A stretch of DNA of 45,526 nucleotides from Chiloscyllium plagiosum (Eukaryota), in the NCBI RefSeq assembly GCF_004010195.1, contig NC_057726.1:70596532-70642057 (forward strand). The letters run 5' to 3'. Positions 8,266 through 41,883 of the stretch are shown one piece after another; the first letter of the stretch is position 1; each line of letters opens with the position of its first letter. Under the pieces are notes generated by a model. It was not told where the DNA came from. It did not search any database and saw only the letters and a program-made list of their open reading frames with translations. The position numbers and the translations under genes were made by a program.

Positions 8266-8284
8266 CCCCAATTTTTTTCCCGCG

Positions 8285-8845: not shown

Positions 8846-8859
8846 TTAAAGATCAGCAA

Positions 8860-10095: not shown

Positions 10096-10149
10096 GAGAC
10101 TGATGACACTGCCAATCCGTGAGGCGGCCAGGTCTGTCAATCAAAAGTT

Positions 10150-13100: not shown

Positions 13101-13390
13101 TGAAGAAGGCGAATAGCATGCTGGCCTTCATAATAAGACGGATTGAGTATAAAAGCAAAGTCATTCTTCTGCAGCTGTACAGGGCCCTGGTGAGACCACA
13201 CCTGGAGTACTGTGTGCAGCTCTGGTCTCCAAATTTGAGGGAAGACATTCTGGCTATTGAAGGAGTGCAGCGAAGGTTCACGAGGTCAATTCCTGGAATG
13301 GCGGGATTACCTTACACTGAAAGACTGGAGTGACTGGGCTTGTATACCCTTGAGTTTCGAAGACTGAGAGGGGATCTGATTGAGATGCAT
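10150..13390 (+). mobile_element. Near-full CR1 LINE: ORF1 SGNH esterase remnant plus ORF2 APE endonuclease-RT, with an internal deletion
   Basis: ORF1: GDSIVRG, HVGTND, DGLHLN. Endonuclease: VNAR, ITETWL, ILDLVL, SDHN. RT: [16 protein letters not shown], catalytic FADD mutated to FAYD. Multiple stops. Confidence 0.92.
11780..11979 (+). mobile_element. Short 5'-truncated CR1 3' end nested inside the larger CR1
   Basis: FTQRVLGAWNALP..QLDRYMD plus 3' UTR ending in (TTCTATG)n; the host ORF2 resumes afterwards. Confidence 0.8.
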
Positions 13391-13959
13391 GATTGTTATT
13401 CATGGTAAATTAATCCAACATTCGCAGCCTCTCCAGGATTATTGAGATGATAACCATTCTATTAATGCTACACATTCCTGTGCAAAGGATCTTCATTCAT
13501 GAAAGAGCCAGAGCTGCAGCACAAACTCAGTGATAATAAATTCCGAGGTTAGCATTCTGAATGCAAATGGGTTGGCTGTTAGGAAAGCATCAAGTAGCTA
13601 GCATTCTAAGACAGCTTCAACACAGATGTTTGGATTGGAGGTGGTTGGAAGATGCGGCCAGTGAGGTCAGGAATTCACCTTGTTATTTTCCTGAGGTGCT
13701 TGTTCTCTGATAGAACATTCACCCTCTCTCTTGCACTGTCTGCATACCCCACCAACCCCAGTGGAAAAGGAGCTGGTGGGGAGGACCCTGGGTGAACATA
13801 AACAGTGCATCAAGAAAGGATGAGTTAAGGAGAGAATTCTATCATCGGGATGGACACCACCCATTTGTGGCTGCCTGAAAACATCACCTCCTAGATTACT
13901 TTTGAGCTTGACAGCAAAGTGGCCAGGGAATGAGGAGCAGGATCAGGAGTCATCCATCA

Positions 13960-14225
13960 AAATATAGAAAATAGGAGGAGAGATAGGCCATTCAGCCCCT
14001 CGAGCTTGCTCTACCATTCACTCTCTGATCATGGCTGATCAGTGAACTCAATTCCCTGTTCCCACCTTCTCCCTGTATCCATTGATCCCTTCAGTCCTGA
14101 TAACTATATCTAACAACTTCATGAAAATATCCAATGTTTTGACCTCAACTGCTTTCTGTGGAAGGGGATCACTGGCTCACCACTCTGGACGATGATGTTT
14201 CTCCTCATCTCTACCCTAACTGGCC
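13960..14225 (-). mobile_element. CR1 3' end fragment
   Basis: Reverse-orientation CR1 3' UTR (ggccattcagccc...atcatggctgatc). Confidence 0.65.
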
Positions 14226-14240
14226 TACTGGGAACAGGAG

Positions 14241-14276
14241 ATTCGACGTTTCGGGCACAGGCTCTTCTTCAGGAAT
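14241..14276 (-). ncRNA. Putative minimal type I hammerhead ribozyme in the Penelope pLTR
   Basis: - strand reads auuc-CUGAAGA-a-gagc-cugu-gccc-GAAAC-GUC-gaau: 4-bp stem I, stem II with one mismatch, palindromic ACGU in place of helix III. Confidence 0.65.
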
Positions 14277-15308
14277 GAGCAGAGAGTGTTCAGCAGGAGA
14301 AGATAAAAGGTAGGGAGGAGGGACTTGGAGGAGGGGCGTTGGAAATGTGATAGGTGGAAAGAGGTCAAGGTGTGGGTGTTGGGTCGGAGTAGGATGGAGG
14401 CGGAGAGGTCAGGAAGAAGACTGCAGGTCAGGAAGGCGTTGCCGGGCTGGAGGGATTCGGCTGAGACAAGGTGGGGGGAGGGGGGATGAAGAAACTGGTG
14501 AAGTCCAAGTTCATCCCCTGTGGTTGGAGGGTTCCCAGTCGGAAGATAAGACGCTCCTCCTCCGACCGTCGGGTTGTTGTGGTTTGGCGGTGGATGAGTC
14601 CAATGACCTGCATATCCTCGGTGGAGTGGGAGGGGGAGTTGAGATGCTGTGCTACAGGTTGGTTGGGTTGGTTCGTCCGGGTGGCCCAGAGGTGCTCTCT
14701 GAATCGCTCCGCAAGTAGGCGGCCTGTCTCCCCAATATAGAGGAGGCCACACCGGCTGCAGCGGATGCAGTAGATGATGTGGGTGGAGGTGCAGGTGAAT
14801 CTGTGGCGGATATGGAATTTTCCTTTGGGGCCTTGGAGAGAAGTGAGGGGGGAGGTGTGGGCGCAAGTGTTGCACCTCCTGCGGTTGCAAGGGAAGGTGC
14901 CGGGAGTGGTGGTTGGGTCGGTGGGGGGTGTGGATCTGACAAGGGAGTCGCGGAGGGAGTGGTCTCTATGGAAAGCTGATAGGGGAGGGGAGGGAAATAT
15001 ATTCTTGGTGCTGGGGTCTGTTTGGAGGTGGCGGAAGTGACGGCGGATGATGTGCTGTACATGGAGATTGGTGGGGTGGTAGGTGAGGACCAGTGGGGTT
15101 CTGTCCTGGTGGCGGTTGGAGGGGCGGGGCTCAAGGGCGGGGGGGCGGGAAGTGGAGGAGATGCGGTGGAGGGCACCGTCGACCACGTCGGGGGGGAAAT
15201 TGCGGGTCCTTGAAGAAGGAGGCGTCTGTGTTGTACGTATTTTGAACTGGTCCTCCTGGGAGCAGATGCGGCGGAGACGAAGGAATTGGGAGAATGGGAT
15301 GGCGTTTT

Positions 15309-15442
15309 TACAGGGGGCAGGATGGGAGGAGGTGTAGTCCAGGTAGCTGTGGGAGTCTGTTGGTTTGTAGTAGAATACAGGGGGCAGGATGGGAGGAGGT
15401 GTAGTCCAGGTAGCTGTGGGAGTCGGTTGGTTTGTAGTAGAA
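15309..15442 (+). repeat. 67-bp tandem duplication at the truncated end of the Penelope element
   Basis: 15309-15375 is repeated at 15376-15442 with one mismatch. Confidence 0.9.
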
Positions 15443-15699
15443 TTTTAGTTTTTATGTCTTATATTCTTATGTCTTCTTGTCCAGTATGATGTATTTGATG
15501 CCACTCACTAGAATAGCCTTCTCACAGTTTGTGATTAATTTCCAAATAAGTCAATTCCCACATTGACCAAACATTCTTTCTAATTAATTTTCTGCACAGA
15601 CGTACTCGGGTGGGGCGCAGCAATTCACGGATAGAGAAAGCCAGCAGGCACAGATGCACTTAAATATCTTGAACAAAACGGAAATGACCGAGGTGACAA

Positions 15700-16085
15700 T
15701 AGCACAGTGATTCAGGGCTCAGGGACCGACCGTGATAGTGTTCAGAATTCAATGTCTGTGTACTTAACTCAAATCTATGCTCAGTAATGGTTACTGCAAA
15801 TTATTGATTGTCATAAATTTATATCATTCTCAAATGGCCTTAAGGGAAGGAAATCAATCATCTTCCTCTGGTCTGACCTATACAGTGAGTGATTTATGTT
15901 AATTCAATTTCCTAATAAGTGGCAGCTTTAAAAGACTTTTCGAGTCTCCATGTGTTGGTCAATAAGTACCTTCAACAAATCAAACAGTGAGTGATTGACT
16001 CCTATCCACATTCAAGAGATATTAGGAATATGCTGCAAATGCTGAATGTCCAGTCACATCATCAACCCATTTGCAACTGAAATAA
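15700..16085 (+). mobile_element. Ancient Deu-domain (SacSINE-like) SINE relic; paralog at ~28890-29205
   Basis: agggaaggaaatc...ctggtctgrccta...ttgactc core present in both duplicated blocks. Confidence 0.55.
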
Positions 16086-16559
16086 GAACAAACCCACATG
16101 ATTAAAATATGGCAATAAATAGAATTAATATCCATATTAAGGCAAATTGTGTGTTTTTAATTCCTTATTGGTTTTCTATCCTTCATGCTGCCACAATAAT
16201 GTTGCAAATTGGAAGGAAGAATGAAATTGATCAAGTAAGTTCCTGTGAGGTGGTAGTTTAAACGTTTTATTTCAAAAATATACATTATCCATAAAAAAAG
16301 CTTTGTATATATACATAGTTACAAATAAAGTTCAGTTCTGTCTAGACTTGCTATCCACAACACTTTTCATTTTGTGAATGCTCCGCAGCGTCCCCACTTG
16401 CCACTCCAACTCCAAAACTCGGGCTTCCAGGAGCTGCAGCTGGAGACACTTCTTGCACACTGGAATCATAGAATCTCTACAGGGTTGAAGTAGGCCATTC
16501 AGCCCTATGAGTCAATACTGACCCTGCAAGGAGCATCCCACCAAGACCCACACCCCTGT

Positions 16560-18959: not shown

Positions 18960-21740
18960 TGTACAAGAAGCATCTCCAGCTGCAGCTCCTGGAAGCCCGA
19001 TTTTTGGAGTTAGAGTGCCAAATGGGGATCCTGCGGAGCATCCACAAAATGAAAAGTGTTGTGGATGCAAGTCTAGAGATGTGGTTACACAGCAGACTCA
19101 GATTCAACAGGCAGGAAGGGAATGGGTGACCACCAGGCAGAGCAGGAAGGCTAAGGAGGCAGTGCAGGAATCTTCTGAGGCTATTCCCTTACAAAACAGA
19201 TATGCCCTTTCAGCTGGTGTTGAGGGGAATGGCTTCTCAGGGGATAACAGCGCAGCCAAATTCATTGCATCAGAGGGAGGGAGGGTTAGGTGTGGAAATG
19301 CTATAAGTGTAGGGGTTTCAATCGTCAGGGGAATAGATAGGCATTTCTGTGGCGACAAATAAGAGTCCAGGTTAGTATGTTGTCTCTCTGGTGCTAGGGT
19401 CCTGGATGTCTCACAGCGAATGCAAGATCTTCTGGAGCGGGAGGGTGAACAGCCAGTGGTCATGGTACATATTGGCACTAACGACACAGTTAATAAGTTC
19501 CTAAAAGCAGAATGTAGAGAAGTAGAAAGTATGTTGAAATGTAACACCTTAAGGGTAGTTATCTCTGGATTAATACCAGTACTAGTAAGAGTAGAAACGG
19601 CACGATGTAGAGGAATAGCATGTGACAGAAAAAAACATAAGAGGGGAAGGGTTTGAAATTTGTGGTATCTGTACAAACTGGATGGATTACATCTGTGTCG
19701 AGAGTATGGTGCTGAAAAAGCACAACAGGAGATGGCTGAAAGAGGGACAGGACTGGCAGCTGAATTTCCCAAGATTTAGCTATTTCAGTCGTGACAGAAA
19801 GGGATCTAAAAGTGGGTGGGGAAGCACAGCAGGAGATGGCTGAAAGAGGGACAGGACTGGCAGCTGAATTTCCCAAGATTTTGCTATTTCAGTCGTGACA
19901 GAAAGGGATCTAAAAGTGGGTGGGGAAGTTACATTGCTGGCAAATGATCATCTTACCGCAGTACTGAGGGAAGATACATCAGAGAACCCATGGAGTCAGG
20001 CAATATGGGTAGAACTCAGGAATAGGAAAACTGAAATCACAATACTGGTGGTATAGTACAGAGTTCAGAACAGCCAGTGGGAGATAGAGGAGACAATATG
20101 TTAAAAGATTTTGGAAAGACGTAAAAACAGCAGGGTTGTTGATATGGACGATTTTAACTTCTTCTGTGTTGACTGGGAATCACTATATGCTCGGGGCTTG
20201 GATGGGGCGGAATTTGCAACGTCCATTGAGGAGGTATTCTTGACACATTATGACAACAGTCCAGCCAGGGAAGGGGTTATATTTGACCTGGTTTTGCAAA
20301 ATGAACCTGGCCAGTCTTGTGAATCTATAGTGAGGGAGCATTTTGGCAGTAGTGATCTTAATATCATGAGTTTTAAGACACTCATGGAGAGGGATAACAG
20401 CAGTCCTTGGATGAAAGTGTTAAAGTCAGTGAACTACAACAATATTAGGCAAGAACTAGAGAATTTTGATTGTGGGCAGCTGTTTTAAAGTAAATCTTCA
20501 TCAGACATGTGGAGCACTTCAAATTGCAGTTGACAAGAGTTTCGTGAGCGGCACATTTCTATGAGGATGAAGGATAGCTACCGCAAATTATATGAACCTT
20601 GGATGAGCAAGGGTGTTATGACCTTGGCCAGAAAGGAAAAGGAAGCATAGGAGGTCAATTGGAACTGATGAAGCCCTTGAAGTATTTAAGAAAAGTAGGG
20701 AAGAATTTCAACAAGGCTTGAGAGGAAAATGTAGCTGGTCTAACTAGTAAGTTTGCAGATGATACAAACATTGGTGGAGTATTTAAGAAAAGTAGGGAAG
20801 AATTTCAACAAGGCTTTAGAGGAAAATGTAGCTGGTCTAACTAGTAAGTTTGCAGATGATACAAACATTGGTGGAGTTGTGTATAATGAGGAGCATTGTC
20901 CGAGGATACAACAGAATATGATCAGTTGGAGGCATGGGCGGAAAAGTGGCAGATGAAGTTTAATTGGGACTCATGTGAGATCGAGTACAGGTAGAAATTT
21001 TACAGTGAATGGCAGGGCCCTTAGGAGCATTGATACGCAGAGAGGTCTGGGTGTGTAGACCCACAGATCACTGAAGGTGAGAGCGCAGCCAGGTAAGGTA
21101 CTTAAGTTAGTAAAAAGGGCTTATGGCATGCTTGACTTCATTGGAAGGGGCATTGAGGATAAGGATAGACAAGTTATGCTGCAACTTAATAGAACTTTAG
21201 TGTGGCCACACTTGGAATATTGCATATAGTTCTGGTCACCACGAAATCAGAAGGGCGTGGATGTTTTGGAGAAGGTACAGAAAAGGTTTACCAAGATGTT
21301 GCCTGGTGTGGGGGATTTTAGCTGTGAAGAAAGGTTGGAAAGACTGGGTTTGTTTTCACTCAAACACAGGAATTTCAGGGGCGATCTAATAGAAGTTTAT
21401 CAGATTGTGAATGACATGGATAGAGTAGAAAGTAAGATGTTTTCCCAGGGTGGAGGAATCAAGTACGAGGGGACACAGGTTCATGGTTTGAGGAAGCAAA
21501 TTCAAAAGTGAATGTCCAAGTCAGTTGGGGATGGTGAGTGCCTGGAACGTGTTGCCAGAGGAGGTGATGGAAGCAGATGGAATAGCAGCATTCAAAAATG
21601 ACCTGGATGAATACATGGATAGAGGGATACCGTTCCTGTAAGTGAAGGCAGTTTTAGTATGGAAGGGCAAAATGTTGCATCACAGGCTGGCAGAGACAAA
21701 CTGTCTGTTCCTGTGCTGTATACTTCCGTGTTCTTCTGTA
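18960..21740 (+). mobile_element. Degenerate CR1 LINE (ORF1 esterase, endonuclease and RT pieces, internal deletions)
   Basis: IPLQNRY, SIVRGIDR, HIGTND, DLVLQNEPG, SKFADDT, RGDLIEVY; two ~100-bp tandem duplications. Confidence 0.88.
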
Positions 21741-22005
21741 TCCGAGTTATCTGAGCCCCTCAGAGATCATCCTGCCTGCTACAACGCAGCAGCTTTGGCC
21801 ATGATGAATCACCAGTCTCAGTGTAGACCTGACTTGATAGGTTATGAGACCTGACTCGGTTAGATGGCAATTTGCAAATTGAAAGGAAAAATAAAATTGC
21901 CCAACTAAGTCGCTGAGAGATTTTATCTTTAATGTGAATACTACCTCTTACCTGACATTGGTTAATCATTGCTAACATTTCACTTATTCTCCCCCCTGTT
22001 TTTAG

Positions 22006-22112
22006 TGAACAGTGACAGGAAAAGGAATTCTTGGCGAGATGTGCTGTAGCAGGGTTATTATTTCTCCTGTTGGTAATGTTTGCGATACATTGCAAATTAT
22101 TTCAAACTAAAG
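22006..22112 (+). pseudogene. Transmembrane exon copy 1 (EKEFLARCAVAGLLFLLLVMFAIHCKLFQTK), frameshifted relative to copy 2
   Basis: Branch site gctaac, acceptor cccccctgtttttag, donor AAAG|gtaaga; 107 nt versus 114 nt, so a phase-1 reading gives xNSDRKRNSWRDVL*. Confidence 0.7.
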
Positions 22113-22479
22113 GTAAGACTTGAAACAATCTGTGTTCAGAATTCCATTTGAATGTTTAATTGGTCATGCCTGGGCCGCAGGTTTTCATTTGCTGTGTGTT
22201 GGGAGCATAATGATAGATGGAGCTAAAACCTTATCTCACCCACATTAAGAAACCAAGACCTATAAATAGAGAGGTGGGACATACCTCTTCCTCTAATCTC
22301 TTCCTCAGGCTAACTTCTCTCTGCTTGAAAATATAGTTCAACCACATTTCATTCTTAATATAATGGAAGGCAGTGATCTGAACCCAGTAAATTGCAATCA
22401 GCAAATTCTGAATTAGAAAATGATCTCATTTCCATTTAACAACAGAAGGCAATGCAACTTTTGTCACTTATGAGAATGA

Positions 22480-23300
22480 GGCTGAGAAGTGGCAGATGGA
22501 GGTTAATTTAGATAAATGCGAGGTGCTGCATTTTGGGAAAGCAAATGTTACCAGCACTAATACACTTAATGATAAGGTCCCAGGGAGTGTTGCGGAACAA
22601 AGAGACCTTGGAGTACAGGTTCATAGCTCCCTGAAAGTGGAGTTGCAGGTACATAGGATAGTGAAGAAGGCGTTTGGTATGCTTTTCTTTATCGGTCAGA
22701 GTATTGAGTACAGGAGTTGGAAGGTCATGCTGTGGCTGTACAGGACACTGGTTAGGCCACTGATGCAATATTGTGTGCAATTCTGTTCTCCTTCCTATCT
22801 GAAAGATATTGTGAAACTTTGAAAGGGTTCAGAAAAGATTTACAAGGGTGTTTCCAGGGTTGGAGTATTTGAGGTATAGGGAGAGGCTGATCAGGCTAGG
22901 GTTGTTTTCCCTGGAGCGTTGGAGGCTGAGGCTGACCTTATAGAGGTTTACAAAATCATGAGGGACATGGATAGGATAAATAGACAAAGTCTTCTCCCTG
23001 GCGTCTGGAGTCCAGAACTAGAGGGCATAAGTTTAGTATAAGAGGGGAAAGATATAAAAGAGACCGGAGGGGTAATGTTTTATGCAGAGTGTGGGAAAGG
23101 TATGGAATGAGCTGCCAGAGGAGGCTGGTACAATTGCAACATTTAAAAGGCATTTGGATGGGTGTATGAATAGGAAGGGTTTGTTGGGAAACGGGCCAGG
23201 TGCTGGCAGGTGGGATGAGATTGGGTTGGGATATCTGGTCAGCATGGACAGGTTGGACTGAAGGGTCTGTTTCCGTGCTGTATATCTCTATGACTCTACA
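22480..23300 (+). mobile_element. CR1/HER1 LINE 3' fragment inserted into duplicate copy 1
   Basis: MEVNLDKCEVLHFG, RDLGVQV, YCVQF and 3' UTR; absent at the matching site in copy 2. Confidence 0.9.
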
Positions 23301-23779
23301 ACCAGGTTCATTTATGATCATATTATCGTTTTATTATCATAACACTTGATTAACACAATGCCAAATGGTGTTTGTGATGATGTTGATCATTGATAATAAC
23401 GTTGTTCACAAGTCGACACCGAGATAACTCCAGTCAACTCCAGAGATAACAGCCAGTTCAAGGAACAGCTTCATTTCCCAATCACTTTTGTATTTTAAGA
23501 AATTGCAAGTTTTTGCAGTGTACAACATACCTGCATCATTATTTTCTGATCATCCTGAATAACAAAGCACCTCCCATCATGGGTTCCCAATGTTGCCTTT
23601 GCCCTAAACGTATGGTTCATGATCACTTATTTCCGCAATCATACTCACGCGTACCCAATCCAGTAGTTTCTGTGACAGTTTACGTTGTGTCACTGTAGAC
23701 TGGATAGTTATTCAAGTGTGCGAAGAGGCATAACCACACTCAAAGTGTAACATAAACTGTTTGGCATATTCATACTTTC

Positions 23780-23910
23780 CCTTGACAAAGAGTCAGTTAG
23801 ACTTGAAACATCAGCTCTTTTCTCTCCTTACAGATGCTGCCAGACCTGCTGAGATTTTCCAGCATTTTCTCTTTTGGTTTCAGATTCCAGCATCTGCAGT
23901 AATTTGCTTT
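23780..23910 (+). mobile_element. Solo pLTR-like short element with a 13-bp target-site duplication
   Basis: tattcatactttc at 23767-23779 and 23911-23923; body carries cagatgctgccagacctgctgag...ccagcatctgcag. Confidence 0.7.
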
Positions 23911-23929
23911 TATTCATACTTTCATAGTT

Positions 23930-24705
23930 TCAGAGTAATAGAAGCAGGACTGGGCCATTAGACCTATCCAGCCTGCTCTGCCATTTATGAAGATCATGGC
24001 TGATTGATCCACCGTCTCAGCTCCTCCTACCTGTATTATTCCCATAACACTTAATTCCCCTACCATGCAAAACCCCATCCAAGTATGTATTGAATTTATT
24101 CAATGAACTGCCTTTACTGCAACCATGGGCAGGGAATTCTCTGGGAAATGCAGTTCCTCCTCATCTCTGTCCTAAATCTACTCCCCCTAATCTTGAGGTC
24201 ATGTCCCCAAGTCTTCATCTCACCCACCAGGAGAAACAATTTGCCTGAGTGTACCTTATCTATCCCTTTCATAATTTTATCCGTTTCTGCAAGATCCCCT
24301 CTCATTCTTTGAAATTCCAGTGAGTACAGTCTCAGGTGGCTCATGCTCTCATCATCTTCTGAAATTAACCTGGTGAACCTCCTCTGCCCTGCCTCCTAAG
24401 CGAGTAGAGAGGAGCCTCAATTGTCTGAATGACACAGGTGGGGTGTATTTCGGTAGGTAATTGAATTCCGGATTATCAAATGACAGATAACATAATTTAG
24501 CAAGTACTGGGACCTTACAATCTTGCCAGATAATCCAATATTCAGATAATTGAATGCCGGATAATCAAGGTTCCTCTGCATATCTTTCCTCAAGTAAGGA
24601 GACCAAAACGGCACACAATACTCCAGATGTGATCTCAACAATACCTTGTACAATTGCAGCAGACCGTCCCTGCTCTGAAATTCAATCCATCAAGCAATGA
24701 AAGCA
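23930..24705 (-). mobile_element. CR1 3' fragment containing a MITE
   Basis: HLEYCVPFWSPYLRKD, RMRGDLAET, RFRTEMRRN. Confidence 0.85.
24407..24578. mobile_element. Tigger/pogo-like MITE (172 bp)
   Basis: Imperfect terminal inverted repeats gagaggagcctcaattgtctg / cggataatcaaggttcctctg, flanked by TA and CA; interrupts CR1 at a TA. Confidence 0.7.
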
Positions 24706-25429
24706 ATGTCTTATTTCAGTTTATTATGAATAAGCATTCATGGTAATGATTTTTGTCCATTTGTCCTGTCCTAGCTACAGCAGGGTTGGACTGCGTTATT
24801 AAATCGGATAATGATATTCTGATTTTGTTCATTGTTTCTGTAGGATAAGTTTTTGTTTTTCCTTTTCAGTTTGCATTTACTTTTGGCTTGGTGCCCCAGG
24901 AAAAGGGCTATTTTGTTGTGAATTCCAATCCCTTGGAAGAGTCAAAGGGACTTTTATTTTAGTCCCAGATTGCCTCTATCCCAGATGCACTTCATTGGGA
25001 TCAGTGTGAGAAGAGTTTTATTTCTAGTTGAAATGAGCAGGGGAACATCCTCTCGATTTTAAACCATTGCTATCCCTGCCCCAGGATGGTGATTTAGCAG
25101 AGGGGATTTGTTTATTTAATTGCTTATTTGCTTGTTTATTCGTTTTCTTTGATTTTGGTTGACTTTACTTTTATTTTCACTCCTTGTTTTCCCGTGCACA
25201 AGCCGTTGGTGGGGATGGAGTCAAGGAAGAGCTACTTTTTGTTTGTTTGTTTATTTTCTCCAGAGCAAAACGTTCTTTAAAATTGTTCAACAAAGTCAAG
25301 TTAGCTTTATTTTTTGTATTCAAGCAGCAGAATGGGATTTGCTCTGTGTTTCACCTCTGTCCTGGGAGTGCCTGATGGAAACAGTGTTGGAGATCTTGTT
25401 TTTTTTTCTTTTCACTCCTTTCATTTTAA

Positions 25430-26445
25430 AGAGTGAAGGGTTGCTTTACAGATTGGAGGTATGTCACCAGCAGTATGCCCCAAGGATTAATTCTGGGTCC
25501 TCTTTCGTTTGTCATTTACATAGATGATTTTGATGCAAATATAGAAGGCATGGTTAGGAATCTTGTGGACAACACCAAAATTGGTGACATAATACACAGT
25601 GAACAGGGTTTTCCTGATTACACATGGATTTTGATCAAATGGGTCAATGCGCTGTAAATGGAAGATGGATTTCAATTTGGATCAATGTGAAATGTTGCAT
25701 TGTGGTAAAACAGGCTGGGGCAGGAATTAGACAATTAATGGTAGGGCCTTGGGTAATGTTGTAGAATAGAGGGGACTATGAATTTAGCTTTATAATTCTT
25801 TGTATTAAACAAAGTGTTTAAAAAGGCATTTAGTTTGCTTGCCTTCATTGCGCAGTCCTTTGAGTCTAGGAGTTGGGAAGCCATTTTGAGGTTGCACCCT
25901 ACCTTGGTAAGACCTCGGCTGGTGTACTGTGTCTTGATTTGGTTGCCTAGTCTTAGGAAGGATATTATTAAGCTGCAGAGAGTTCATAAGCGATTGACCA
26001 GGATATCGCCAGGTGAGAAAGTTTTGAGTTATGAATAAAGACTTGATAGGCTGGGACTGTTTGTACAGAGCATCGGAATTTGAGAGGTGAGTTTACAGAG
26101 GTATATAAAACATGTAGGTAGGGTTACTGGTTAGGTTCTTTTCCCTAGGATGGCAAATCGCAAGAATAGGGGGCACATGTTTCAGGTAAGTGGAGGGAGA
26201 TTTTAAAAGATATGAGGGAGAATTTAGTTTACGCCGAGGGTGCTCCACATGTGGAATGAACTTCATGAAGAAGTGGTGGATATGGACACAGTTACAAAAT
26301 TTAAAAGACAGTTTGGTGAGTAGGAAAGATTTGGAGGGATATGGGCCAAAAACAGGCAGGTGCCAATAGCTTAATTTGGGATTATGTTTGGTAAGGTGTA
26401 TTCAACTAAAAGGTCTGTTTCTGTGCTGTGTGACTCTATGACTCC
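25430..26445 (+). mobile_element. CR1 LINE 3' fragment
   Basis: PQGLILGP, LVRPRLVYCV, and 3' UTR ending gactctatgact. Confidence 0.85.
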
Positions 26446-26487
26446 TTAAGCAGAAAGCACATACATAAGGAAGGCTAAACATTACAG

Positions 26488-27210
26488 TGCAGGTATCGTC
26501 CCGTTTCCGTATCAATTGAAGCAAACACTCAGAGACACAGTATGGCTGTACCTTCTTCATCTTTATTCCGAGCACTGGAGAGAGCGCGATAGCCCATGTA
26601 CACAAGGATATGAGTTCTTGATCTTCTCTCGAACAGCAGATTCTTAAGGAATTACATAATCAGTTACAGGGAACAGCACCCAAATATAGCCTCATCCATA
26701 TTGATTGGGTGACCGTTACTATCAGCAAGCATCAACAGTAAAGATTAAGCCATCTGGCATTACACAATAAATGATCTTCACCTCGGTAACTGGCATTACA
26801 TAAAAGGTGTTCTTCACCTCGTTAAACCACTACCCTTGCCTCCAGCACCTCGTTGTTTACTGCAATTTCTTATCTGGTCAATGTCATGCTAGCTGAACCT
26901 TTGTCACGCACTCATACCCTCCATTTATCATTTCATGACAACCACCTAGATAACACTATAACCTTCTTCATAAAATTCTTACGCCTAGCACTTAATCAAA
27001 TTATTGTCACACAACATGCAATGATTATAACAACAAAAATTACTAGTCCATGCAGTAGATAGGATCTCCAGGATCCTCCCATATGGAAAAGTATTTACCA
27101 GTAAAGGTCTTCAAACCACAGTCCTTAGTGACCATTCTACCCCCTCCAAGTCGAGTAGAAATGAGCCAGTTATCAAAAATCTCCTTCAGTAAAGTCCAAC
27201 CTGAAAACAA
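26488..27210 (-). mobile_element. Endogenous retrovirus remnant: env transmembrane C-terminus, polypurine tract and 3' LTR (~26488-26914)
   Basis: - strand GGSWRSYLLHGLVIFVVIIIACCVTII* (26980-27080), purine tract aaatggagggta followed by TG, ~36-bp tandem U3 repeats (26754-26826), CCAAT, AATAAA (26562-26567). Confidence 0.6.
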
Positions 27211-27540
27211 AATCTAGATTGTCCTTCTGCATCACTCCATGGCAAAATCTGAATTCTTAGATAAAGTCAGTTGAATACCTAACAAAACTGACAAGACTTC
27301 CATCCTTGCAGAGATGGCTCAGACGAAGAGTACCAGCATATCTGAGTGTAAAGTGCAGCAGCAGGCTCGGTGAATGCAGCATTCCTTGCTGCTTCTGCTC
27401 CCGCTCTGCTGTTAAATGGAACAAAACCATAGTTTTGATGTCAGTTTGATCAGTGAATCTTCATATACCTTAAATGATCAAAAGGCAAGATAAAGCTCAC
27501 GCACTTTAATGTTCATAAGAAGGTAACTAACAAAAAGCAT

Positions 27541-27661
27541 TCAGACCTCCTCTTCACCGTTGTTAGCTTCTTCACTTGTCGTGCCCATGACTAGGGAGCT
27601 GATTGAATCCGTTTGATCAGGCTGTTGCGGGACGGGTGATGGTCTGAAGGTGTGCTTTACC
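27541..27661 (-). other. Candidate terminal coding exon (VKHTFRPSP...NNGEEEV* or GKAHLQTITRPATA*)
   Basis: Acceptor tttcttcattcacag in non-repeat DNA; upstream donor AAAG|gtaaac near 27783. Confidence 0.3.
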
Positions 27662-29480
27662 TGTGAATGAAGAAACTGTGAAGATAATGTTAGCTGCTGC
27701 ATTTCCTCTCTTATTCCTTCCTTGCCAAAATGGGTATCAGTGTGAAGACAGTCACACATTTCCCTACACTAAATTGTGTTTACCTTTTTCAACATTCTCA
27801 GTTGCCTTGAAGTCTGTTACTCTGTTCACTAGTTATGAAATTATCAAGTTTTATAAAATCCATAAGCTTCTAAATTGAACTGCTTGAATAATTCAATCAA
27901 TTATAAACAACAATCAATGGTCAGAACGGGGACCCCATTCAGGTTATTCAAAAATTATTTTCCTTTGACAAATTAATACTTGACTAGTGTGAAAACTGTC
28001 AGGAAAATTGTTTCGAAATCTGGAACAGCAAGAAAACAACAAAATATTTCCTGTGCTTTAGCCATTGAAGAGGCAGTTTCAGTTCAGATTTAATCTCAAA
28101 TAAATGTGGGAAACAAATGCAGAATATATTAAAATATGTTGTCCAAATGAAACTTCCCAAATAAAACAATTGGGATTACAATGGTTACAGACCAGTAACT
28201 GTACAACTTTGCTCGAGATCAATATTCTTTGAATTTGCCATATGAAGTGGGGGGGGGGGGGGAGGGAAATTAAGTTTTAACAATAATTGACAGAACTTAA
28301 GCAGCCCAGCCTCAAGTTCTAATATTCTCTACAATCTTATTTCCTAACAAGCCATATTGTGCGACAGACTTTTCGAATCTGCATATTTAGATAATAAGTA
28401 CCTTCATCAAACCCCTCACATAATTTATAAAAGAGTCCAATTAAGTTAATGAAGTCTGAGCTGTTCTTAATAATCAGTGCTTAGTTTCATTCACCAGCAT
28501 TTATTTCCAACCTTCTGAAGTGCCACATGTGTTAAAGTGTTTAATGATTCTCATTCTGAAATAGACTGACTGGCTTTTAGTCACTGGACTGAAACCTATC
28601 ACCTAGCATATTATTTGGCTGTCATACAAAAGATAGTGCTGTGATGAGGAACGGAATTGAAATCCAGGTTATCCACACAGTGGTATCAGGTCCTGTGAGA
28701 TATATTTGATGCCACTCACTAGAATACTTTTCTCACAGCCTGCGATTAAACTCCATGCAATTTAATTCCACAGTGAGCAAACATTCTTTCTAATCAGTTT
28801 ACTTTTCTGCACAGCAAGTACAGAAGTGATGGAGAACAAATAGAGTAATTCACTTGCATGTCTGGAACAACAAGAAATAGACGGGGAGATAATGCCACAG
28901 TGGGAATCTGAAAGGGTTCAGATCCCACCATGATAGTTTTCAGAATTTAAACTATGTACTTAAAACATATAAAATTGAATGTCTGTACTGATTAATGGTT
29001 ACCATGAAACTACTACTGATTGTCATAAAATGAATATGCTTCTCAAATGGCATTGAGGGAAAGAAATCAATCATCCTTCTCTGGTCTGGCCTACATTTAC
29101 TCGAGCCCAACAGCGTGTAGTTGACTCCTATCTGCTTTCAAGTGATGCTAAGAATATGTAACAAATTCTGTGCCTAGTGACAACATCAACCCATGAGCAA
29201 CTGAAACAAGAATAAACTGCATGATTAAAATGTGTCAATTAATAGGATTAAAGATGTACTAACACAAATATACCATATGAGTATTCTTAATTCCTTATAA
29301 GAGTTTACTTACTTAAAGCCACCACAATAATGTTACAAATTATTGGAAAGATGGAATTTCCTGAGTAAGTCCCTGGGAGATGGTTGCTTTAATATATGTG
29401 CTACATCTTACCTGAAGGTAATTATCACTGCAATCTCTGCTCTTTAAGATGCTAACATTTGATTTGTTCTCCCATTTTAG

Positions 29481-29594
29481 CTAGCACTGTCAGCACGTTT
29501 CCAAAGGAGTTGGTGGCTCGATATGCTGTTGCAGGATTATTACTTTTAATGCTAGTAACAGTTGTGAATTGTTGCAAATTAGATACAATTAAAG
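29481..29594 (+). CDS. Intact transmembrane exon of an Ig-superfamily receptor (xSTVSTFPKELVARYAVAGLLLLMLVTVVNCCKLDTIKG)
   Basis: Branch site gctaac, acceptor ttctcccattttag, donor AAAG|gtcaga; 114 nt, phase 1-1, open; hydrophobic helix with an N-proximal Arg; conserved with the paralog at 22006. Confidence 0.8.
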
Positions 29595-29746
29595 GTCAGA
29601 CGTGACACAATGTATCTTTAGAATTGCACTTTGGTATTTACTCACAGCTCAGTGCTGCAGTGTCAGGAAAATTAACTGGTCACGTCTGCGGTGTAGGTTT
29701 TCACTTGCTACTGTTTTGGGAGCATCATCCCTCTGAAACCCAGTGT

Positions 29747-30058
29747 TTAGATTACTTACAGTGTGGAAACAGGCCTTCAGCCCAACAAGTCCACACCGAC
29801 CCACCGCAGAGCAACCCACCCAGACCCATTCCCCTACATTTACGCTTTCCCCTAGCACTATAGGTAATTTAGCATTGCTGATTCACCTAACCTGCACATC
29901 TTTGGACTAGGGGAGAAAACCAGTTCACCCGGAGAAAACCCATGCAGACCTGGGGAGAATGCGCAAACTTCACACAGACAGGTTCCTATGGCAGGAATTG
30001 AACCTGGGTATCTGGCGCTATGAGGCAGCAACGCTAACCACTGTGCCACTGTACCGCC
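29747..30058 (-). mobile_element. HE1-like SINE
   Basis: Same family as 18610 and 31006; absent from duplicate copy 1. Confidence 0.88.
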
Positions 30059-31005
30059 TATTCTAATTATAAAAAGAGCTAAAATCGAGTCTACACCTCA
30101 GGCTAATTTCTCTAGAAATGAAAATAAAGGTGAGCCCCCCATTACATTCTATGATAATGCAAGACAGTGATCTGAACCCAGTAAATTACAATGGGAAAAT
30201 TCTGACATAGAAAATAAACTTATTCTCATTCAACAATAGAAATAAATGCAACTTTGTCACTTATGATGAGAATGACCGTGTTGCTTGATTACAGCATTAC
30301 TTTTGACTGAAGTGATGCCAAATTATGTTGATGATGAAATTGATCATTGATGAAAATGTTGTTTTCTAACAGGCACCAAGATAACTCCAGTAGACTCCAG
30401 AGATAACAACCAGTTTGAGGAACAGGTTTGTTTCATGATCACTTTTGTTTTGCCAAGTAGAACGTTTCGACAGTGTGCAACATGCATACATCATTATTTC
30501 CTGAACTGCTGCAACATCACAACATTTCCCACTAAGACCATGGATTCCCAATGTTGTCTTTGCCCTAAACACATGACTAATGATCACTCATTTCAACAAT
30601 GATCCCCACACATACCTAACCCAGTAGCTTCTGCAAACAGTTGATGTTTTCATTGTGTCACTGGATAGTTATTCAACTGTGCAAAGTGGCATATGCTCAC
30701 ACAAAGCATAACAGATATTCAGCAGGGCAAGTAAAATCTATGCAGAGAAACAGTTAATGCATCAGGTCTAAGGCGTTGAATCATTGTGCAACAATTCTGT
30801 TGCTCACAATGAACTTGTACAGTAGCTTTACGCTGAGTGGTTGCGACCATTATTCAAATTCAGCCCCAATGTGTTATGACGAATTGTGCAAACTGGGCCC
30901 TTAGTTTATTGTTTAACGCCACAAGTCTAGTCTTAGACAAATTAATTGTGAATATTCACAGAAATGGTTATTCTCCTTTGTCCTGTTTTGAGAAATGATT
31001 TTTTT

Positions 31006-32689: not shown

Positions 32690-32800
32690 AGAATACAAGA
32701 AGGAGAGGTGGGGATTCTATCTTATGCTGCACTAAATGTCAGACACTACAAGAGAAGTAGAAAGAACAGACAGAAGGAAGACCGAACTTTGTATGCACAG
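32690..32800 (+). pseudogene. Cytoplasmic ITIM exon A (RIQEGEVGILSYAALNVRHYKRSRKNRQKEDRTLYAQ); donor appears inactivated
   Basis: Acceptor tttctataatattcgtcctcag; 111 nt, phase 0-0; LSYAAL ITIM; ends CAG|gaacaa instead of gt. Confidence 0.7.
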
Positions 32801-32940
32801 GAACAATTATAAAACACAACTGTGCTTTCTAATTAGGACCGCTTCAACACAAGTGCCGATTTCCATTGATGTATATTGAATAGCTACAAGAATTAATTTG
32901 ACTAGCAGCTGCTCTTGATGTTTCCTTATTGCTTTTACAG

Positions 32941-33072
32941 ATTAAACAAGGAACTGATGATAATCTGATTTATGTGTATCTGGAAATGACTGATTTTCCA
33001 AAAACAACAACAAAGAAAGAGACAACAAACATGAAGATAAGCAAGCCAAACAGAGAATCCAGGATTGCATAG
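32941..33072 (+). pseudogene. Cytoplasmic terminal exon B (IKQGTDDNLIYVYLEMTDFPK...SRIA*)
   Basis: Strong acceptor tttccttattgcttttacag; phase 0; its first Ile completes TLYAQI (ITSM); LIYVYL ITIM; AATAAA at 33259-33264. Confidence 0.7.
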
Positions 33073-36860: not shown

Positions 36861-36989
36861 TGAAAGATTCGATTGATTAGAATGCAAATTCAGTGCCTAT
36901 TTCAATCATAGCCCCAAGTTAATTAAAGGTTGTATCAGTGTTTGCCTAACTTGCCAAACATCAATCAGGTAGAGATACAAAACATGAAA

Positions 36990-38980
36990 GGCCGACGAGG
37001 GTAGTGGCTATTTTGGATTTGATGCTCGGCAATGAGCCGAGACAGGTGTCAGATCTTGCGGTGGGAGAGCATTTTGGTGATAGTGACCACAACTGCCTCA
37101 CATTCGACATAGTAATGGAGAAGGAGAGAAATAGGCATAATGGGAGGATATTTAATTGGGGAAAAGAAACTGTGATGCTCTCAGACGTGAGTTGGGAAGC
37201 ATGAACGGGAGCAATTGTTCCATGGAAAGGGCAATATAGACATGTGGATAGTGTTTAAGGAACAGTTGATGTGAGTGATGCATAAATGTGTTCCTCTGAG
37301 ACAGGCAAGGAAGGGTAAGATAAAGGAACCTTGGATGACGAGACCAGAGGAGCTTCTCGTCAAAAGAAAGAAGGCAGCTTACGTAAGGTGGAGGAAGCAA
37401 GGGTCTTGCTGAACTCTAGAGGATTACAGGCAAGTGAGGAAGGAGCTAAAAATGGTCTGAGGAGAGCAAGAAGGGGGCACGAAAAAGGCTTGGCAGGAAG
37501 GATTAGGGAGAATCCAAAAGTATTTTACACGTATGTGAGGCGTAAGAGAATGATCAAAGAAAGATTAGGGCCGATCAGGGATAGAATAGAGAACTTGCTT
37601 ATAGAGTCTGAGGAGGTAGGGGAAGCCCTAAATGAGTTTTTTGCTACTGTCTTTACTAAAGAAAAGGACCTTGTAGAGGGAGGCAAATGTAATTCCTCTC
37701 TTCAAGAAAGGAAATAGAGAAATCCCCGGAAATTACAGACCAGTCAGTCTCACGTCTGTCCTCTGCAAGGTGTTAGGAAGGATTCTGAGGGATAGGATTT
37801 ATGACCATCTGGAAGAGCATGGATTGATTAAATGCAGTCAGCACAGCTTTGTGAGGGGGAGGTCATGCCTCACAAATCTTATTGATTTCTTTGAGGATGT
37901 TACTAGACAAGTTGATGAGGGTTGAGCGGTGGATGTGGTGTGTATGGACTTCAGCAAGACTTTTGATAAGGTTCCCCATTGTAGGCTCATTCAGAAGGTC
38001 AGAAAGAATGGGATACAGGAAAATTTAGCTGTCTGGATACAGAATTGGCTAGTCGATAGAAGACAGCGAGTGGTAGTGGAAGGAAAATATTCTGCCTGGA
38101 AGTCAGTGGTGAGTGGTGCTCCACAGGGCTCTGTTCTTGGGCCTGTACTCTTAATAATTTTTATTAATGACTTGGATGAGGGATTGAAAGATGGGTTAGC
38201 AAGTTTGAAGATGACACAAAGGTGGGAGGTGTCATTGACAGTATAGAGGACTGTTGTAGGCTTCAGCGTGACACTGACAGTATGCAGAGATGGGCTGAGA
38301 GGTGGCAGATGGAATTCAACCTGGATAAATGCGAGGTGATGCATTTTGTAAGGTCGAACTTGAAAGTTGACCACATGTTTAAAGATAGGGACACTGACAG
38401 TATGCAGAGATGGGCTGAGAGGTGGCAGATGGAATTCAACCTGGATAAATGCGAGGTTATGCATTTTGTAAGGTCGAACTTGAAAGTTGACCACATGTTT
38501 AAAGATAGGATTCTTAGCAGTGTGGAGGAACAGCGGGATCTAGATGTGCAGGTACATAGATATTCTATTTTGATCAAAAACACACAATTTGTAATCAGTC
38601 AGTGTTTGTAATCAGTCAGCATATATATTTTAAGATGCCTTAAAATTGCCACCCAAGTGGACAGGGTTGTTCAGAAGGCATATGGTGTTGTGGCTTTCAT
38701 TAACAGGGGGATTGAGTTTAAGAGCCGTGAGATCTTGTTGCAGCTCTATAAAACTTTGGTTAGACCGCACTTGGAAACTGTGTCCAGTTCTGGTCGCCCT
38801 ATTATAGGAAAGATGTGGATTCTTTGGAGAGGATTCGGAGGAGGTTTACCAGGATGCCGCCTAGATTGGAGTGCTTATCATACGAAGATTGGTTGACTGA
38901 GCTCAGACTTTATTTTTTGGAAAAAATAAGGAAGAGAGGGGACCTAACTGAGGTGTACAAGATAATGAGAAGCGTAGATA
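36990..38980 (+). mobile_element. CR1/HER1 LINE ORF2, degenerate, with a 120-bp tandem duplication (38270-38509)
   Basis: [50 protein letters not shown] twice, RGDLTEVYK. Confidence 0.92.
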
Positions 38981-38982
38981 AC

Positions 38983-40385
38983 GTTAAAAATCACACAACA
39001 CCAGGTTAAAGTCCAACAGGTTTAATTGGAAGCGCACTAGCTTTCGGAGCGACGCTCCATCATCAGGAGATTGTGGAGGGCTCGATCGTAACACAGAATT
39101 TATAGCAAAAATTTGCAGTGTGATGTAACTGAAATTATACATTGAAAAATTGATTGTCTGTTAAGCTATTCATCTGTTAGAATACAGTGATAGTTTCACT
39201 TCTTTCATGTGTAAATCACAAAAGTCTTTTTTTTAAAGTTGCATTCCCGGGTTAGCTGTTAACAATGGTGATAGCTGGACAATATGTTAAAGGTGTTAGC
39301 CCCCTGCGTTCTCTGTCTATGACCTGATGTTTAGGTTGATTCTAATCTAAAAAGTGAGATAACAGAGTTTTACATAAATTCATGCAGTTTTTGAGCTCAG
39401 AGTTCTACATGAATGTATGCAGTTTTTGAGCAAAGTGCAATGTAACTCTGCAAGTACAAATTCACGACACAAAATATATGTGTGCATGTGGGTCTTTGTC
39501 TGTCTGGGGTGGGGCTTGTGAGTGTGAGAAAGTGTGCGTAGTGAGTACAGAGTGTCTTAAGTCTGTGAGGGGGTGCATGTGTGGGAGTGTGTGTGTCTAT
39601 AAGGGTGTGTGTGGGTGTGTGTGTGCGCGTCTGTGTGTAGCTGTGTCCGTGTGTATGTGAGAGTGTGTGTGTAGGAATATCTGTCTGTGTGTGTGTAGTG
39701 CAATGGTGATCACCTGTAATGTGACATGAATCCAAGGTCCCGGTTGAGGCCTTCCCTATGGGTACCGAACTTAGCTATCAGCCTCTGCTCGGCCACTTTC
39801 CTCTGCTGCCTGTCCCAAAGTCCACCTTGGAGGATGGTCACCCAAAGGTCCGAGGCTGAATTTCCTGGACCACTGAAGAGTTCCCCAACTGGGAGTGAAC
39901 CGTCCTGTCTGTTGATTGCTGTGCGGTGACCATTCATCCGTTGTCGTAGCCTTTGCTCGGTTTCCCCAATGTACCATGCCTTTGGGCATCCTTGCCTGCA
40001 ACGTATAAGATAGACAACATTGGCTGAGTCACATGAGTACCTGCCATGTACAAGGTGGGAGGTGTTCCCACCTTGTACATGGTATCTATGTCCACAATCT
40101 GGCACGTCTTGCAGCGTCCACCGTGACAGGGTTGTATGGAGTTGTCCTGAGAGCCAGGCAGTTTGCTACGAACAATGATCTGTTTGAGGTTTGGCAGTTG
40201 TTTAAAGGCAAGTAGTGGAGGTGTGGGGAAGGTCTTGGTGAGGTGCTCATCCTCATTGATAATGTGTTGCAGGTCACGAAGAACATGGTGTAATTTTTCA
40301 GCCCCTGGGAAGTACTGAACAACGAAGGGTACCCTGTCAGTTGCAGCACGTGTCTGTCTCCTGAGGAGGTCATTATGGTTCCTTG
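38983..40385 (-). mobile_element. Penelope-like element family 2, 5'-truncated, with GIY-YIG, CA-rich UTR and pLTR
   Basis: RVPFVVQYFPG, CHGGRCKTC, NVVYLIRCRQGCPKAWYIGETEQ, RMNGHR, EGLNRDLGFMSHY. Confidence 0.92.
39035..39069 (-). ncRNA. Putative minimal hammerhead ribozyme
   Basis: - strand reads cuc-CUGAUGA-u-ggagc-guc-gcucc-GAAAG-CUA-gug: 5-bp stem II, palindromic AGCU, weak stem I. Confidence 0.65.
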
Positions 40386-41608
40386 CCCCCCCACCCCCCA
40401 TAAAAGGGTACTCAGGCTCATGGTCTATATCTCAATATATTGTGATCAAGTTTGATATGCATTTGTGTGCCATATCTCTAAATATAATTATATCGGAGAA
40501 TCTTTTAAATTTAATTAAATAACTTTGTGCCAATTACAGATAACGAATTATTCAAAAAATATCCTAAAGTTTGGAGAAATTAAAAAATTTTAAAGACAGT
40601 GACGATCAGTCACAACGAGCAGGACTCCATTCCCTTTAAGGGTCTAGGTAGTTTCTTGTACACAGGCCATGACTCTAAAGTGATACAAAAATATTAAGGT
40701 AAAATGATAAGGGAAAAAATCGATTGATCTTAATGAAAGGACTGGGATAATAAATAAAAGCTACATGTACACAGTCTGGCCCCTTCATTGCGTAATGAAT
40801 ACCTCCTGATGGCTATCCATTTCAAATATAGGAATGAAGTTAATTGCGAATTTTAAAAATAACCTATCATAAATTATGATCGTTAAGAATTTTGTAATCA
40901 AGTGCCCAGAACTGGGTTGCAGTGCTGAAATAGGCATTTACCAATAACAGGGTCATTAGGACCGATTTTTAAAAATTGATTTGACCCTGTTTGTCAAACA
41001 CGTATTTTTTTGTCACAGTCAGTGGTTGCAGGTGTTTAGTTTTCTGTACGTAATCACACAGTTTATCTTACATTCAGTTAGCTCACATTATTAGCATCCT
41101 AACATGCTCAGTCCAGCCTTGTCATTAGCTCTGTTTACTTCGCTCACACCGCCAAAGTAAACCTTATGCAACCTCCCAACTATAAACCGATTTTGGATCA
41201 CATCCAAATTTAACTAAAATCTTTTCAAAATTGATCCTCAGCAATTCTCAGATCTGCAAAGAGGCGTGTACCATGAGGGGTCATGCAGAAATCTTGAAGC
41301 AGTCACTGGAAGCTATGAAATGAGATGAGCCTGATAGTGATGTTTAATAGATCCAAAATGTAGCTGTTCTATCACTGATAACTCAGGCCAGGAGAAAGAA
41401 ATCAATAAACTCCGAAATTTATAGTCGGCATTCTATGTCATATCGCTAAATTTACTTTGCAACATGTTGTCAGATACCTAACCAAATTAAAAAAACGAAA
41501 GCAGAGTGGCGCTTTTCACTGTCATGTTTTAAACTGGTTCATATAGGTCACAAGGCGTCACACAAAAATAGGAACATGGAAACAGTATTAAAAGTTCACA
41601 TTTCTCAC

Positions 41609-41883
41609 CCTGAATTGTGTAGCTGACACTGGCTGGGAGCTGGAGGGTGTGTGGGAAATGCGGCACATACAAACCGATCCACTCCCCAGATGATTGAGAA
41701 TGCTGAAAACTTTAAATAAACTCCCTTCTTTCCATACGTTTGTGGCGTTGATCTCAGATGCAATTAGGATGTCAGTTTTATACCAAATGACGTGAATTTC
41801 CTCTGGGTAAAAAAGAGCTGTCGTGCAGCGGAGAGTGAGGGACGGAGCGGACAGACATGTAATCTTCATTGGCGTTGGTGGCA
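41609..41883 (-). pseudogene. Ig C1-set domain exon (SIRP/B7-H6-like), with a 1-nt frameshift near the 3' end
   Basis: Acceptor gtgttcacag (phase 1), donor CAGG|gtgaga; VPP..TLRCTTALFYPEEIHVIWYK..LFKVFSIL..CRISH has the C1-set C/FYP/W/CxxxH pattern; 275 nt is not divisible by 3. Confidence 0.85.

What the first reader, a model, noticed from the sequence alone, without database searches (positions are those of the whole stretch)
29505..29580. TM motif R-[YC]-AVAGL resembles the FcR-gamma-docking helix of mammalian LRC receptors
Both TM copies keep an N-proximal Arg followed by AVAGL (LVARYAVAGLLLL; FLARCAVAGLLFL) although their flanks have diverged. Fc-alpha-RI (LIRMAVAGL), LILRA, OSCAR, GPVI and NKp46 use an Arg at this position to pair with FcR-gamma/CD3-zeta, whereas SIRP-beta1 uses a central Lys with DAP12. 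Inference: a shark SIRP-like receptor may couple to an FcR-gamma-type adaptor, by convergence or deep homology.
Basis: partly seen in the sequence, partly recalled or inferred. Interest (0 to 1): 0.7.

Follow-up and report, generated by a model that had tools for sequence, protein, structure and literature searches.

The report
Shark receptor's repeated off-to-on switch
The two membrane-anchor exons are likely broken leftovers of a large shark and ray immune-receptor family in which one glycine appears to have changed to arginine many separate times, nearly always alongside loss of the 'off'-signal tail, which likely turns an inhibitory receptor into an activating one, while the letter-for-letter match to the mammalian motif is likely coincidence.

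Summary
Both motifs are real (Arg codons at 29519 and 22037), but the Arg is not 'kept'. The family residue is Gly (36 of 65 proteins), and AVAGL also sits in Gly-type, ITIM-bearing relatives. The NxxR signature of FcR-gamma-docking LRC helices is absent (LVAR, FLAR). Copy 1 is frameshifted. Copy 2 has open 3' exons but a lost tail splice donor, keeps one ITIM, and has no V or C1 exon in the assembly. These are chondrichthyan VJ-C1-TM paired receptors. Arg at this one site goes with loss of the tyrosine tail: 0 of 13 Arg versus 30 of 52 other proteins carry two or more motifs. It needs at least 8 changes among 37 TM exons of this genome, uses four different codons, and never appears at the Gly columns +4 and +5. 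A zeta/FcR-gamma-type TM exon with its Asp exists in the genome; coupling is inferred, not shown. Convergence, not deep homology. The scan noted this family before on other DNA (8 notes). I did not find it in searchable papers, but three shark NCR3/B7 papers were unreadable.

The parts
29481..29594 (+). TM exon of copy 2 (phase 1-1, open, AG..GT intact)
   Evidence: 89% of residues of paralog D2 and 79% of this exon match P0003
29519..29521 (+). Arg codon CGA at the family's Gly/Arg site; sister D2 has GGA
30373..30425 (+). first cytoplasmic exon of copy 2, open, splice sites intact
32690..32812 (+). middle tail exon (32690-32800) with ITIM-type LSYAAL; donor GT changed to GA at 32801-32802, so read-through ends TLYAQEQL-stop at 32812
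32941..33072 (+). last tail exon, open (LIYVYL where D2 has LIYVSL); likely cut off by the lost donor
22006..22112 (+). TM exon of copy 1, Arg AGA at 22037-22039, 7-nt deletion against paralog D1, frameshifted
23416..23468 (+). decayed first cytoplasmic exon of copy 1 (acceptor altered, donor GT changed to CT)
26448..26483 (+). 36-nt remnant of the middle tail exon of copy 1
15441..16285 (+). remnant of the intron upstream of the copy 1 TM exon, separated from it by repeats; no C1 exon before it
41609..41883 (-). C1-set exon of a third family member on the other strand, 1-nt deletion near its 3' end, no TM, tail or V exon of its own found; cannot serve the + strand TM exons

Best explanation
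The window holds the 3' halves of two duplicated, likely dead members of a shark and ray family of V(J)-C1 membrane receptors whose Gly-type forms carry ITIM-type tails and whose Arg-type forms have short tails, so the two types likely act as inhibitory and activating pairs. Shown: the exons, the breaks, the Gly/Arg site and its link to tail loss. Inferred: a one-base change of the GGN codon puts Arg at the outer end of the helix, where it would pair with the Asp of the zeta/FcR-gamma dimer and signal through its ITAM, and loss of the tyrosine tail removes the inhibitory output. This switch likely happened many times, including separately in copy 1's lineage (AGA) and copy 2 (CGA), before both lost their ectodomain exons. 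Copy 2 looks like a late, incomplete conversion (Arg plus one ITIM). The likeness to LRC helices is convergence on Arg position; AVAGL is the family's ordinary G-C-A-x-G-G-L stretch.
For: 65 public proteins: Gly 36, Arg 13; two or more Tyr motifs in 0 of 13 Arg versus 30 of 52 others (Fisher p 1e-4), median tail 28 versus 98 residues. Arg count 13 at the site, 0 at Gly columns +4 (36 Gly) and +5 (43 Gly). Ectodomain tree: 12 changes for 13 Arg rows; 9 independent pairs, tail state same way 5.6, opposite 0, median p 0.031. Arg and Gly forms are close sisters, e.g. P0007/P0010. Own genome: 15 Arg of 37 TM exons, open tail exon in 1 of 15 versus 17 of 22, at least 8 changes with the codon masked, codons AGA, CGT, CGA, CGG. 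Arg forms occur in sharks and rays. Adaptor TM exon with Asp. Breaks in the window copies. Arg near the top of the TM pairs with FcR-gamma in LILRA, KIR2DL4 and Xenopus XFL (PMC10679719, PMC3422731, PMC2413239; passages).
Against: The genome-level independent-pairs test is not significant (4 same, 0 opposite, 3 ties; p 0.125). The Fisher tests ignore kinship. 22 of 52 non-Arg proteins also lack two motifs, and many are automatic gene models that may be truncated. Several Arg copies in G000 are themselves broken (61.542, 68.954, 70.008, E, copy 1), so decay could add to the link. NxxR is present in only 2 of 13 Arg proteins. Arg gene E has an open last exon with two Tyr motifs and an open first cytoplasmic exon. 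Copy 2 has 18 private residue differences in 135 (unrooted), so its own Arg may be drift. Its open frames are unlikely under long neutral decay (2-6%), and the gap to its missing V/C1 lies in a repeat, so an assembly collapse is not excluded.
Confidence: 0.6

Rival explanations
1. Copy 2's Arg is drift in a decaying pseudogene: the Gly-type gene lost its ectodomain first and then gathered random changes, one of which hit this codon.
For: 18 window-private residue differences versus 4 (D2) and 8 (P0003); dN/dS 0.57, not clearly below 1 (p 0.075). Neighbouring C-to-Y and I-to-N changes in the helix. One lost splice site among several is expected at this divergence (intron distance 0.137).
Against: A given codon turning to Arg on a branch of about 0.087 has a chance of roughly 5% (my estimate). 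All four exons stay open (2-6% under neutrality). The same change recurs family-wide at this site and not at Gly columns +4 and +5.
Confidence: 0.2
2. Arg-type members are short-tailed decoys or non-signalling forms; the Arg is merely tolerated at the membrane surface and binds no adaptor.
For: The Arg lies at residue 3-4 of the best hydrophobic window. 11 of 13 Arg proteins lack the Asn of NxxR.
Against: Tolerance predicts Arg in long-tailed forms too: 0 of 30 proteins with two or more motifs have it. Lys, Asp and Glu are absent or single at the site. The mammalian docking Arg is also near the top of the helix (PMC3422731, passage).
Confidence: 0.15
3. Copy 2 is an intact gene whose V and C1 exons were lost in assembly; it encodes a KIR2DL4-like receptor with a TM Arg and a single ITIM.
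For: TM, first cytoplasmic and middle exons are open with intact acceptors and give a 96-residue read-through product. The break against D2 (27457-28338) is inside a repeat that no listed contig spans. 5 of 13 Arg proteins keep one Tyr motif.
Against: Only one C1 and one V of this subtype were found in the whole assembly, unplaced contigs included, for two TM-tail units; the searches score only the best candidates. An independent contig joins 28222-28700, across the point where similarity to D2 ends. Conserved tail positions are altered.
Confidence: 0.12
4. The helix is deeply homologous to LRC/XFL FcR-gamma-docking helices.
For: One subgroup does carry NxxR and is conserved between distant sharks (P0007, P0019; G000 68.917 and 68.954). 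PMC2413239 argues that this TM module is ancient (Discussion read).
Against: The window copies have Leu or Phe at -3. Their Arg is one base from Gly in sister genes. AVAGL is in Gly forms. The ectodomain is V-set plus C1-set. The exon has no PDB sequence match at E 10.
Confidence: 0.04

Closest known systems
SIRP family (SIRP-alpha/beta/gamma)
   Same: V plus C1-set ectodomain, tyrosine-motif inhibitory tails, paired short-tailed forms; many relatives carry automatic SIRP-alpha-like names; the family profile hits SIRP-alpha 2wng at E 1.6e-14.
   Different: One C1 rather than two and a J-like G-x-G-T end to the V; Arg at the outer end instead of the central Lys used with DAP12 (SIRP details recalled). 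UrIg2, CD276 and IgA score higher than SIRP-alpha, so orthology is not shown.
LRC activating receptors (LILRA, Fc-alpha-R, GPVI, OSCAR, NKp46) and Xenopus XFL TM1
   Same: Arg near the N-terminal end of the TM, short tail, inhibitory partners (PMC2413239, PMC10679719; passages).
   Different: They share NxxR and have C2-type or FcR-type domains; here NxxR is in 2 of 13 Arg proteins and in neither window copy, and the domains are V+C1.
KIR2DL4
   Same: Arg near the top of the TM with one ITIM (PMC3422731, passage), as in the read-through product of copy 2.
   Different: Unrelated ectodomain; copy 2 has none in the assembly.
NCR3/NKp30 and UrIg (non-rearranging VJ genes)
   Same: Germline-joined VJ domain; NKp30 binds CD3-zeta by TM charge (PMC12272517, passage); UrIg is VJ-C1 (PMC10751288, passage).
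   Different: Those are described as MHC-linked; this cluster is on C17, while the 45 MHC class I matches are on C37 or on high-numbered contigs and none on C17. Overlap with the eight shark NCR3 subtypes of Kinlein 2021 could not be checked (paper not held).

Membership tests
LRC/XFL FcR-gamma-docking TM | Arg near the N-terminal end of the TM | tested here: met
   residue 4 of the best 19- and 21-mer hydrophobic windows
LRC/XFL FcR-gamma-docking TM | NxxR motif (PMC2413239) | tested here: not met
   LVAR and FLAR in the window; N at -3 in 2 of 13 Arg proteins
LRC/XFL FcR-gamma-docking TM | C2-type Ig ectodomain (LILR, PMC10679719) | tested here: not met
   relatives are V-set plus C1-set
LRC/XFL FcR-gamma-docking TM | short tail without ITIM | tested here: inconclusive
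   copy 1 tail decayed; copy 2 keeps LSYAAL and loses the later motifs
LRC/XFL FcR-gamma-docking TM | association with FcR-gamma or CD3-zeta | not testable with these tools
   needs co-expression; a candidate adaptor exon exists
SIRP | V-C1-C1 ectodomain (recalled) | tested here: not met
   one V and one C1 in P0003, P0007, P0049, P0060 and in the genomic neighbours
SIRP | central TM Lys for DAP12 in activating forms (recalled) | tested here: not met
   no Lys in columns +1 to +19 of 65 TMs
SIRP | orthology by tree or synteny, CD47 binding | not tested
   only a profile search of PDB sequences, which did not rank SIRP first
NCR3/NKp30 | MHC linkage | tested here: not met
   0 of 45 MHC class I matches on C17
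NCR3/NKp30 | sequence grouping with shark NCR3 subtypes | not tested
Paired immunoreceptors (works like) | similar ectodomains with either ITIM tails or a charged TM and short tail | tested here: met
Chondrichthyan VJ-C1 paired family (intact member) | V and C1 exons in cis | tested here: not met
   none in the window or 150 kb upstream, 23,454 N

The most novel reading that the evidence does not exclude
Cartilaginous fish carry a large non-MHC VJ-C1 paired-receptor system in which activating members are made again and again by one base change (GGN to AGA, CGT, CGA or CGG) at a single pre-positioned TM codon followed by tail loss, recruiting the zeta/FcR-gamma adaptor without NxxR; copy 2 is a snapshot of that switch half done.
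Probability: 0.45. Interest if true: 0.7.

Novelty: new variant of a known kind. Interest (0 to 1): 0.48.

Why it matters
If right, it names a candidate innate on/off receptor system of sharks and rays and shows a one-mutation route from inhibitory to activating receptor, used at least 8 times in one genome. It gives natural Gly/Arg sister pairs to test whether a lone outer Arg, without NxxR, is enough to recruit zeta/FcR-gamma. The principle is known from mammals and frogs, and the two window copies themselves are poor test objects.

Tried and rejected
Complex prediction of copy 2 TM (37 aa) with two copies of the adaptor TM peptide: no answer, score 0.05, controls not folded, my alignment not used. 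RNA: no RNA holder listed; about 2 in 100 reads of single-cell run X21 gave zero depth over 29400-29715 and 30348-30950, and X20 contigs next to none; too thin to use. The lay covered 21500-30950 only, so the tail exons and the lost donor were not checked against reads. PDB sequence search with the TM exon: 0 hits at E 10. DAP10 family search in G000: 0 of 39 candidates; not proof of absence; DAP12 was not searched. Full-length adaptor proteins were not obtained (query too short). My first reading of TLYAQV versus TLYAQE as a V-to-E change was dropped: it is a lost splice donor. The idea that the exon is a leader exon was dropped: P0003 has it between C1 and the tail. The dN/dS is void (middle exon off by one base) and was redone; the simulation used the D2 frame and stands. 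The tree kept the site codon; one search masks it. Place look-up of earlier findings: 0. Papers not held: Kinlein 2021, Flajnik 2012, Ohta 2019.

Full report
Observation. A six-frame scan finds the two motifs on the + strand at 22037 and 29519. Copy 2 is a phase 1-1 exon at 29481-29594 with intact AG and GT, followed by exons at 30373-30425, 32690-32800 and 32941-33072. The Arg is residue 4 of the best 19- and 21-residue hydropathy windows. A contig of run X1 matches 29001-29553 with one unlisted difference.

State of the two copies. Copy 1 has a 7-nt deletion against its paralog D1, stops after 14 codons from the homologous acceptor, has lost the donor of its next exon and keeps only 36 nt of its middle tail exon. 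Copy 2 is open in all four exons, but the donor after TLYAQ reads GA instead of GT. Read-through gives 96 residues with one ITIM-type motif, LSYAAL, and drops the two later motifs. No + strand V or C1 exon lies in the window or in 150 kb upstream, of which 23,454 bases are N, including 5,281 directly before the window. The only Ig exon in the window is a frameshifted C1 on the other strand. The window is an 80-89% alike duplicate of C17:69.19-69.28 Mb and lacks the counterpart of about 34 kb that holds D2's C1. Genome searches found one C1 and one V of this subtype, the V on unplaced contig C86523, which could not be placed. The break lies in a repeat; one X1 contig spans 28222-28700, but no listed contig spans the repeat.

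The family. V and C1 queries gave 34 and 45 matches, mostly on C17 at 61.5-62.3 and 68.9-70.7 Mb. Public relatives are labelled as sharks and rays under mixed automatic names and are V-set plus C1-set (5 of 5 scanned, the V of P0019 partial and under the cut-off). The ortholog P0003 reads GGCAVAGLLL with three Tyr motifs. None of 45 MHC class I matches is on C17. A family profile against PDB ranks UrIg2, CD276 and IgA above SIRP-alpha, so no mammalian family is shown to be the ortholog.

Survey of the site in proteins. Of 163 proteins held, I dropped those over 650 aa, 6 isoforms or near duplicates, and those without a C1 motif followed by a TM, leaving 79; 14 more fell under 120 bits or had a gap at the site, leaving 65. 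The site is Gly 36, Arg 13, Ala 6, other 10. Two or more Tyr motifs: 0 of 13 Arg versus 30 of 52 others (p 1e-4); median tails 28 and 98 residues. Three short-tailed rows with Arg at +1 or +3 were counted as non-Arg. Gly columns +4 and +5, equally one base from Arg, hold no Arg, and no Lys occurs from +1 to +19. AVAGL follows Gly in P0003 and P0001, so it is not tied to the Arg. Asn at -3 occurs in 2 of 13 Arg proteins. On a quick tree of ectodomains alone, the 13 Arg rows need 12 changes; in 9 independent pairs the tail differs the expected way 5.6 times on average and never the other way (median p 0.031, range 0.016-0.125). Changes on an ectodomain tree can also reflect exchange of ectodomains between Arg and Gly genes: P0007 and P0019 share a TM type but each groups with a Gly-type protein. 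These are gene models, not checked transcripts.

Survey in this genome. From about 1.15 Mb fetched around C1 matches I read 37 TM exons; a 38th, of a different type (61.903), was left out of the tree. 15 have Arg (AGA 8, CGT 5, CGA 1, CGG 1). By my reading, an open tail exon with two motifs follows 1 of 15 Arg and 17 of 22 other exons (p 3e-5, kinship ignored; for some genes only 8-12 kb downstream was readable). With the codon masked the tree needs at least 8 changes; copy 2 is sister to D2 and copy 1 to D1, both starred. The pairs test gives 4 same, 0 opposite, 3 ties (p 0.125). With Gly in D2, P0003 and most outgroups, two gains (AGA, CGA) cost fewer steps than one gain with a reversal; the direction is inferred, since the tree is unrooted.

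Is copy 2's Arg selected? Against D2, dN/dS is 0.57 (p 0.075), with 18 window-private, 4 D2-private and 8 P0003-private residues in 135, unrooted. This suggests relaxed constraint. Yet neutral decay at the intron rate would leave all four exons open in only 2-6% of simulations. I read this as a gene that worked for part of its history; whether the Arg came before or after the ectodomain loss is open.

Mechanism. LILRA and KIR2DL4 use a TM Arg to pair with FcR-gamma (PMC10679719 and PMC3422731, passages). PMC2413239 (passages and Discussion) defines the shared LRC/XFL helix by NxxR and shows FcR-gamma dependence in Xenopus. G000 has one zeta/FcR-gamma-type TM exon with the Asp (1 match of 55 candidates), like CD3-zeta (E 1e-10) and FcR-gamma (E 6e-8). 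Coupling of intact Arg members to it is the likeliest mechanism and remains inferred.

Novelty. Paired receptors with a TM Arg are known. I did not find this family described in 10 full-text searches (six aimed at shark receptors, listings only unless named). PMC10751288, PMC12227049 and PMC12272517 (passages) mention VJ, VJ-C1 and NCR3 genes but not these. Kinlein 2021, Flajnik 2012 and Ohta 2019 were seen only as reference-list titles; they or their supplements may cover part of the family. Eight unchecked scan notes from other genomes describe the same family; my reading was recorded before them. What this window adds is the codon-level count of repeated switches and the negative result on AVAGL.

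Verdict. Real motif, misread in detail. The copies are likely relics, the resemblance is likely convergent, and the family-level switch is the part worth testing. Interest 0.48.

Noticed in passing
L049:7112-7219 (G000:C17:68917207, -) and C17:68954441; P0019, P0007: A subgroup with true NxxR (NIFR, NFCR, NLFR) and a short tail is conserved between distant sharks; the best candidate for an adaptor test.
   Followed up: partly
window 41609-41883 (-): Orphan C1 exon with a 1-nt deletion and offsetting 4-nt indels; no TM, tail or V counterpart of paralog E was found in the window or 50 kb downstream (gaps present).
   Followed up: yes
G000:C17:69531664 and 70240131: Gln (CAA) and His (CAT) at the site in copies related to Arg-type genes; possible loss of the Arg after decay.
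   Followed up: no
G000:C17:69190138-69211540: Gene C (V, C1, Arg TM) sits inside the upstream intron of the orphan D1 TM exon, so D1 also lacks its own ectodomain; C might splice to either TM.
   Followed up: partly
G000:C17:62012348: Arg three residues before the site (Ala at the site) in a gene with an open tyrosine tail exon.
   Followed up: no
P0002, P0004, P0018: Gene models that skip the TM exon but keep the cytoplasmic exons in frame.
   Followed up: no
window 15309-15442, 19718-19925, 20678-20871, 38270-38509; C17:69248074-69250739 and 69252966-69253239: Head-to-tail duplications 97-99.9% alike, two of them touching D2 exons; recent duplications or assembly artefacts.
   Followed up: no
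L114 (G000:C86228): Unplaced contig 98-99% identical to the D2 3' region; likely an alternate haplotype.
   Followed up: partly
L047:1480-1581 (G000:C12): Only one zeta/FcR-gamma-type TM exon was found in the genome; whether it is CD3-zeta or FcR-gamma was not settled.
   Followed up: partly
window 5700-15450 and 36900-40400: Many broken ORFs that look like LINE reverse transcriptase and GIY-YIG-type elements (labels recalled, no family scan run).
   Followed up: no
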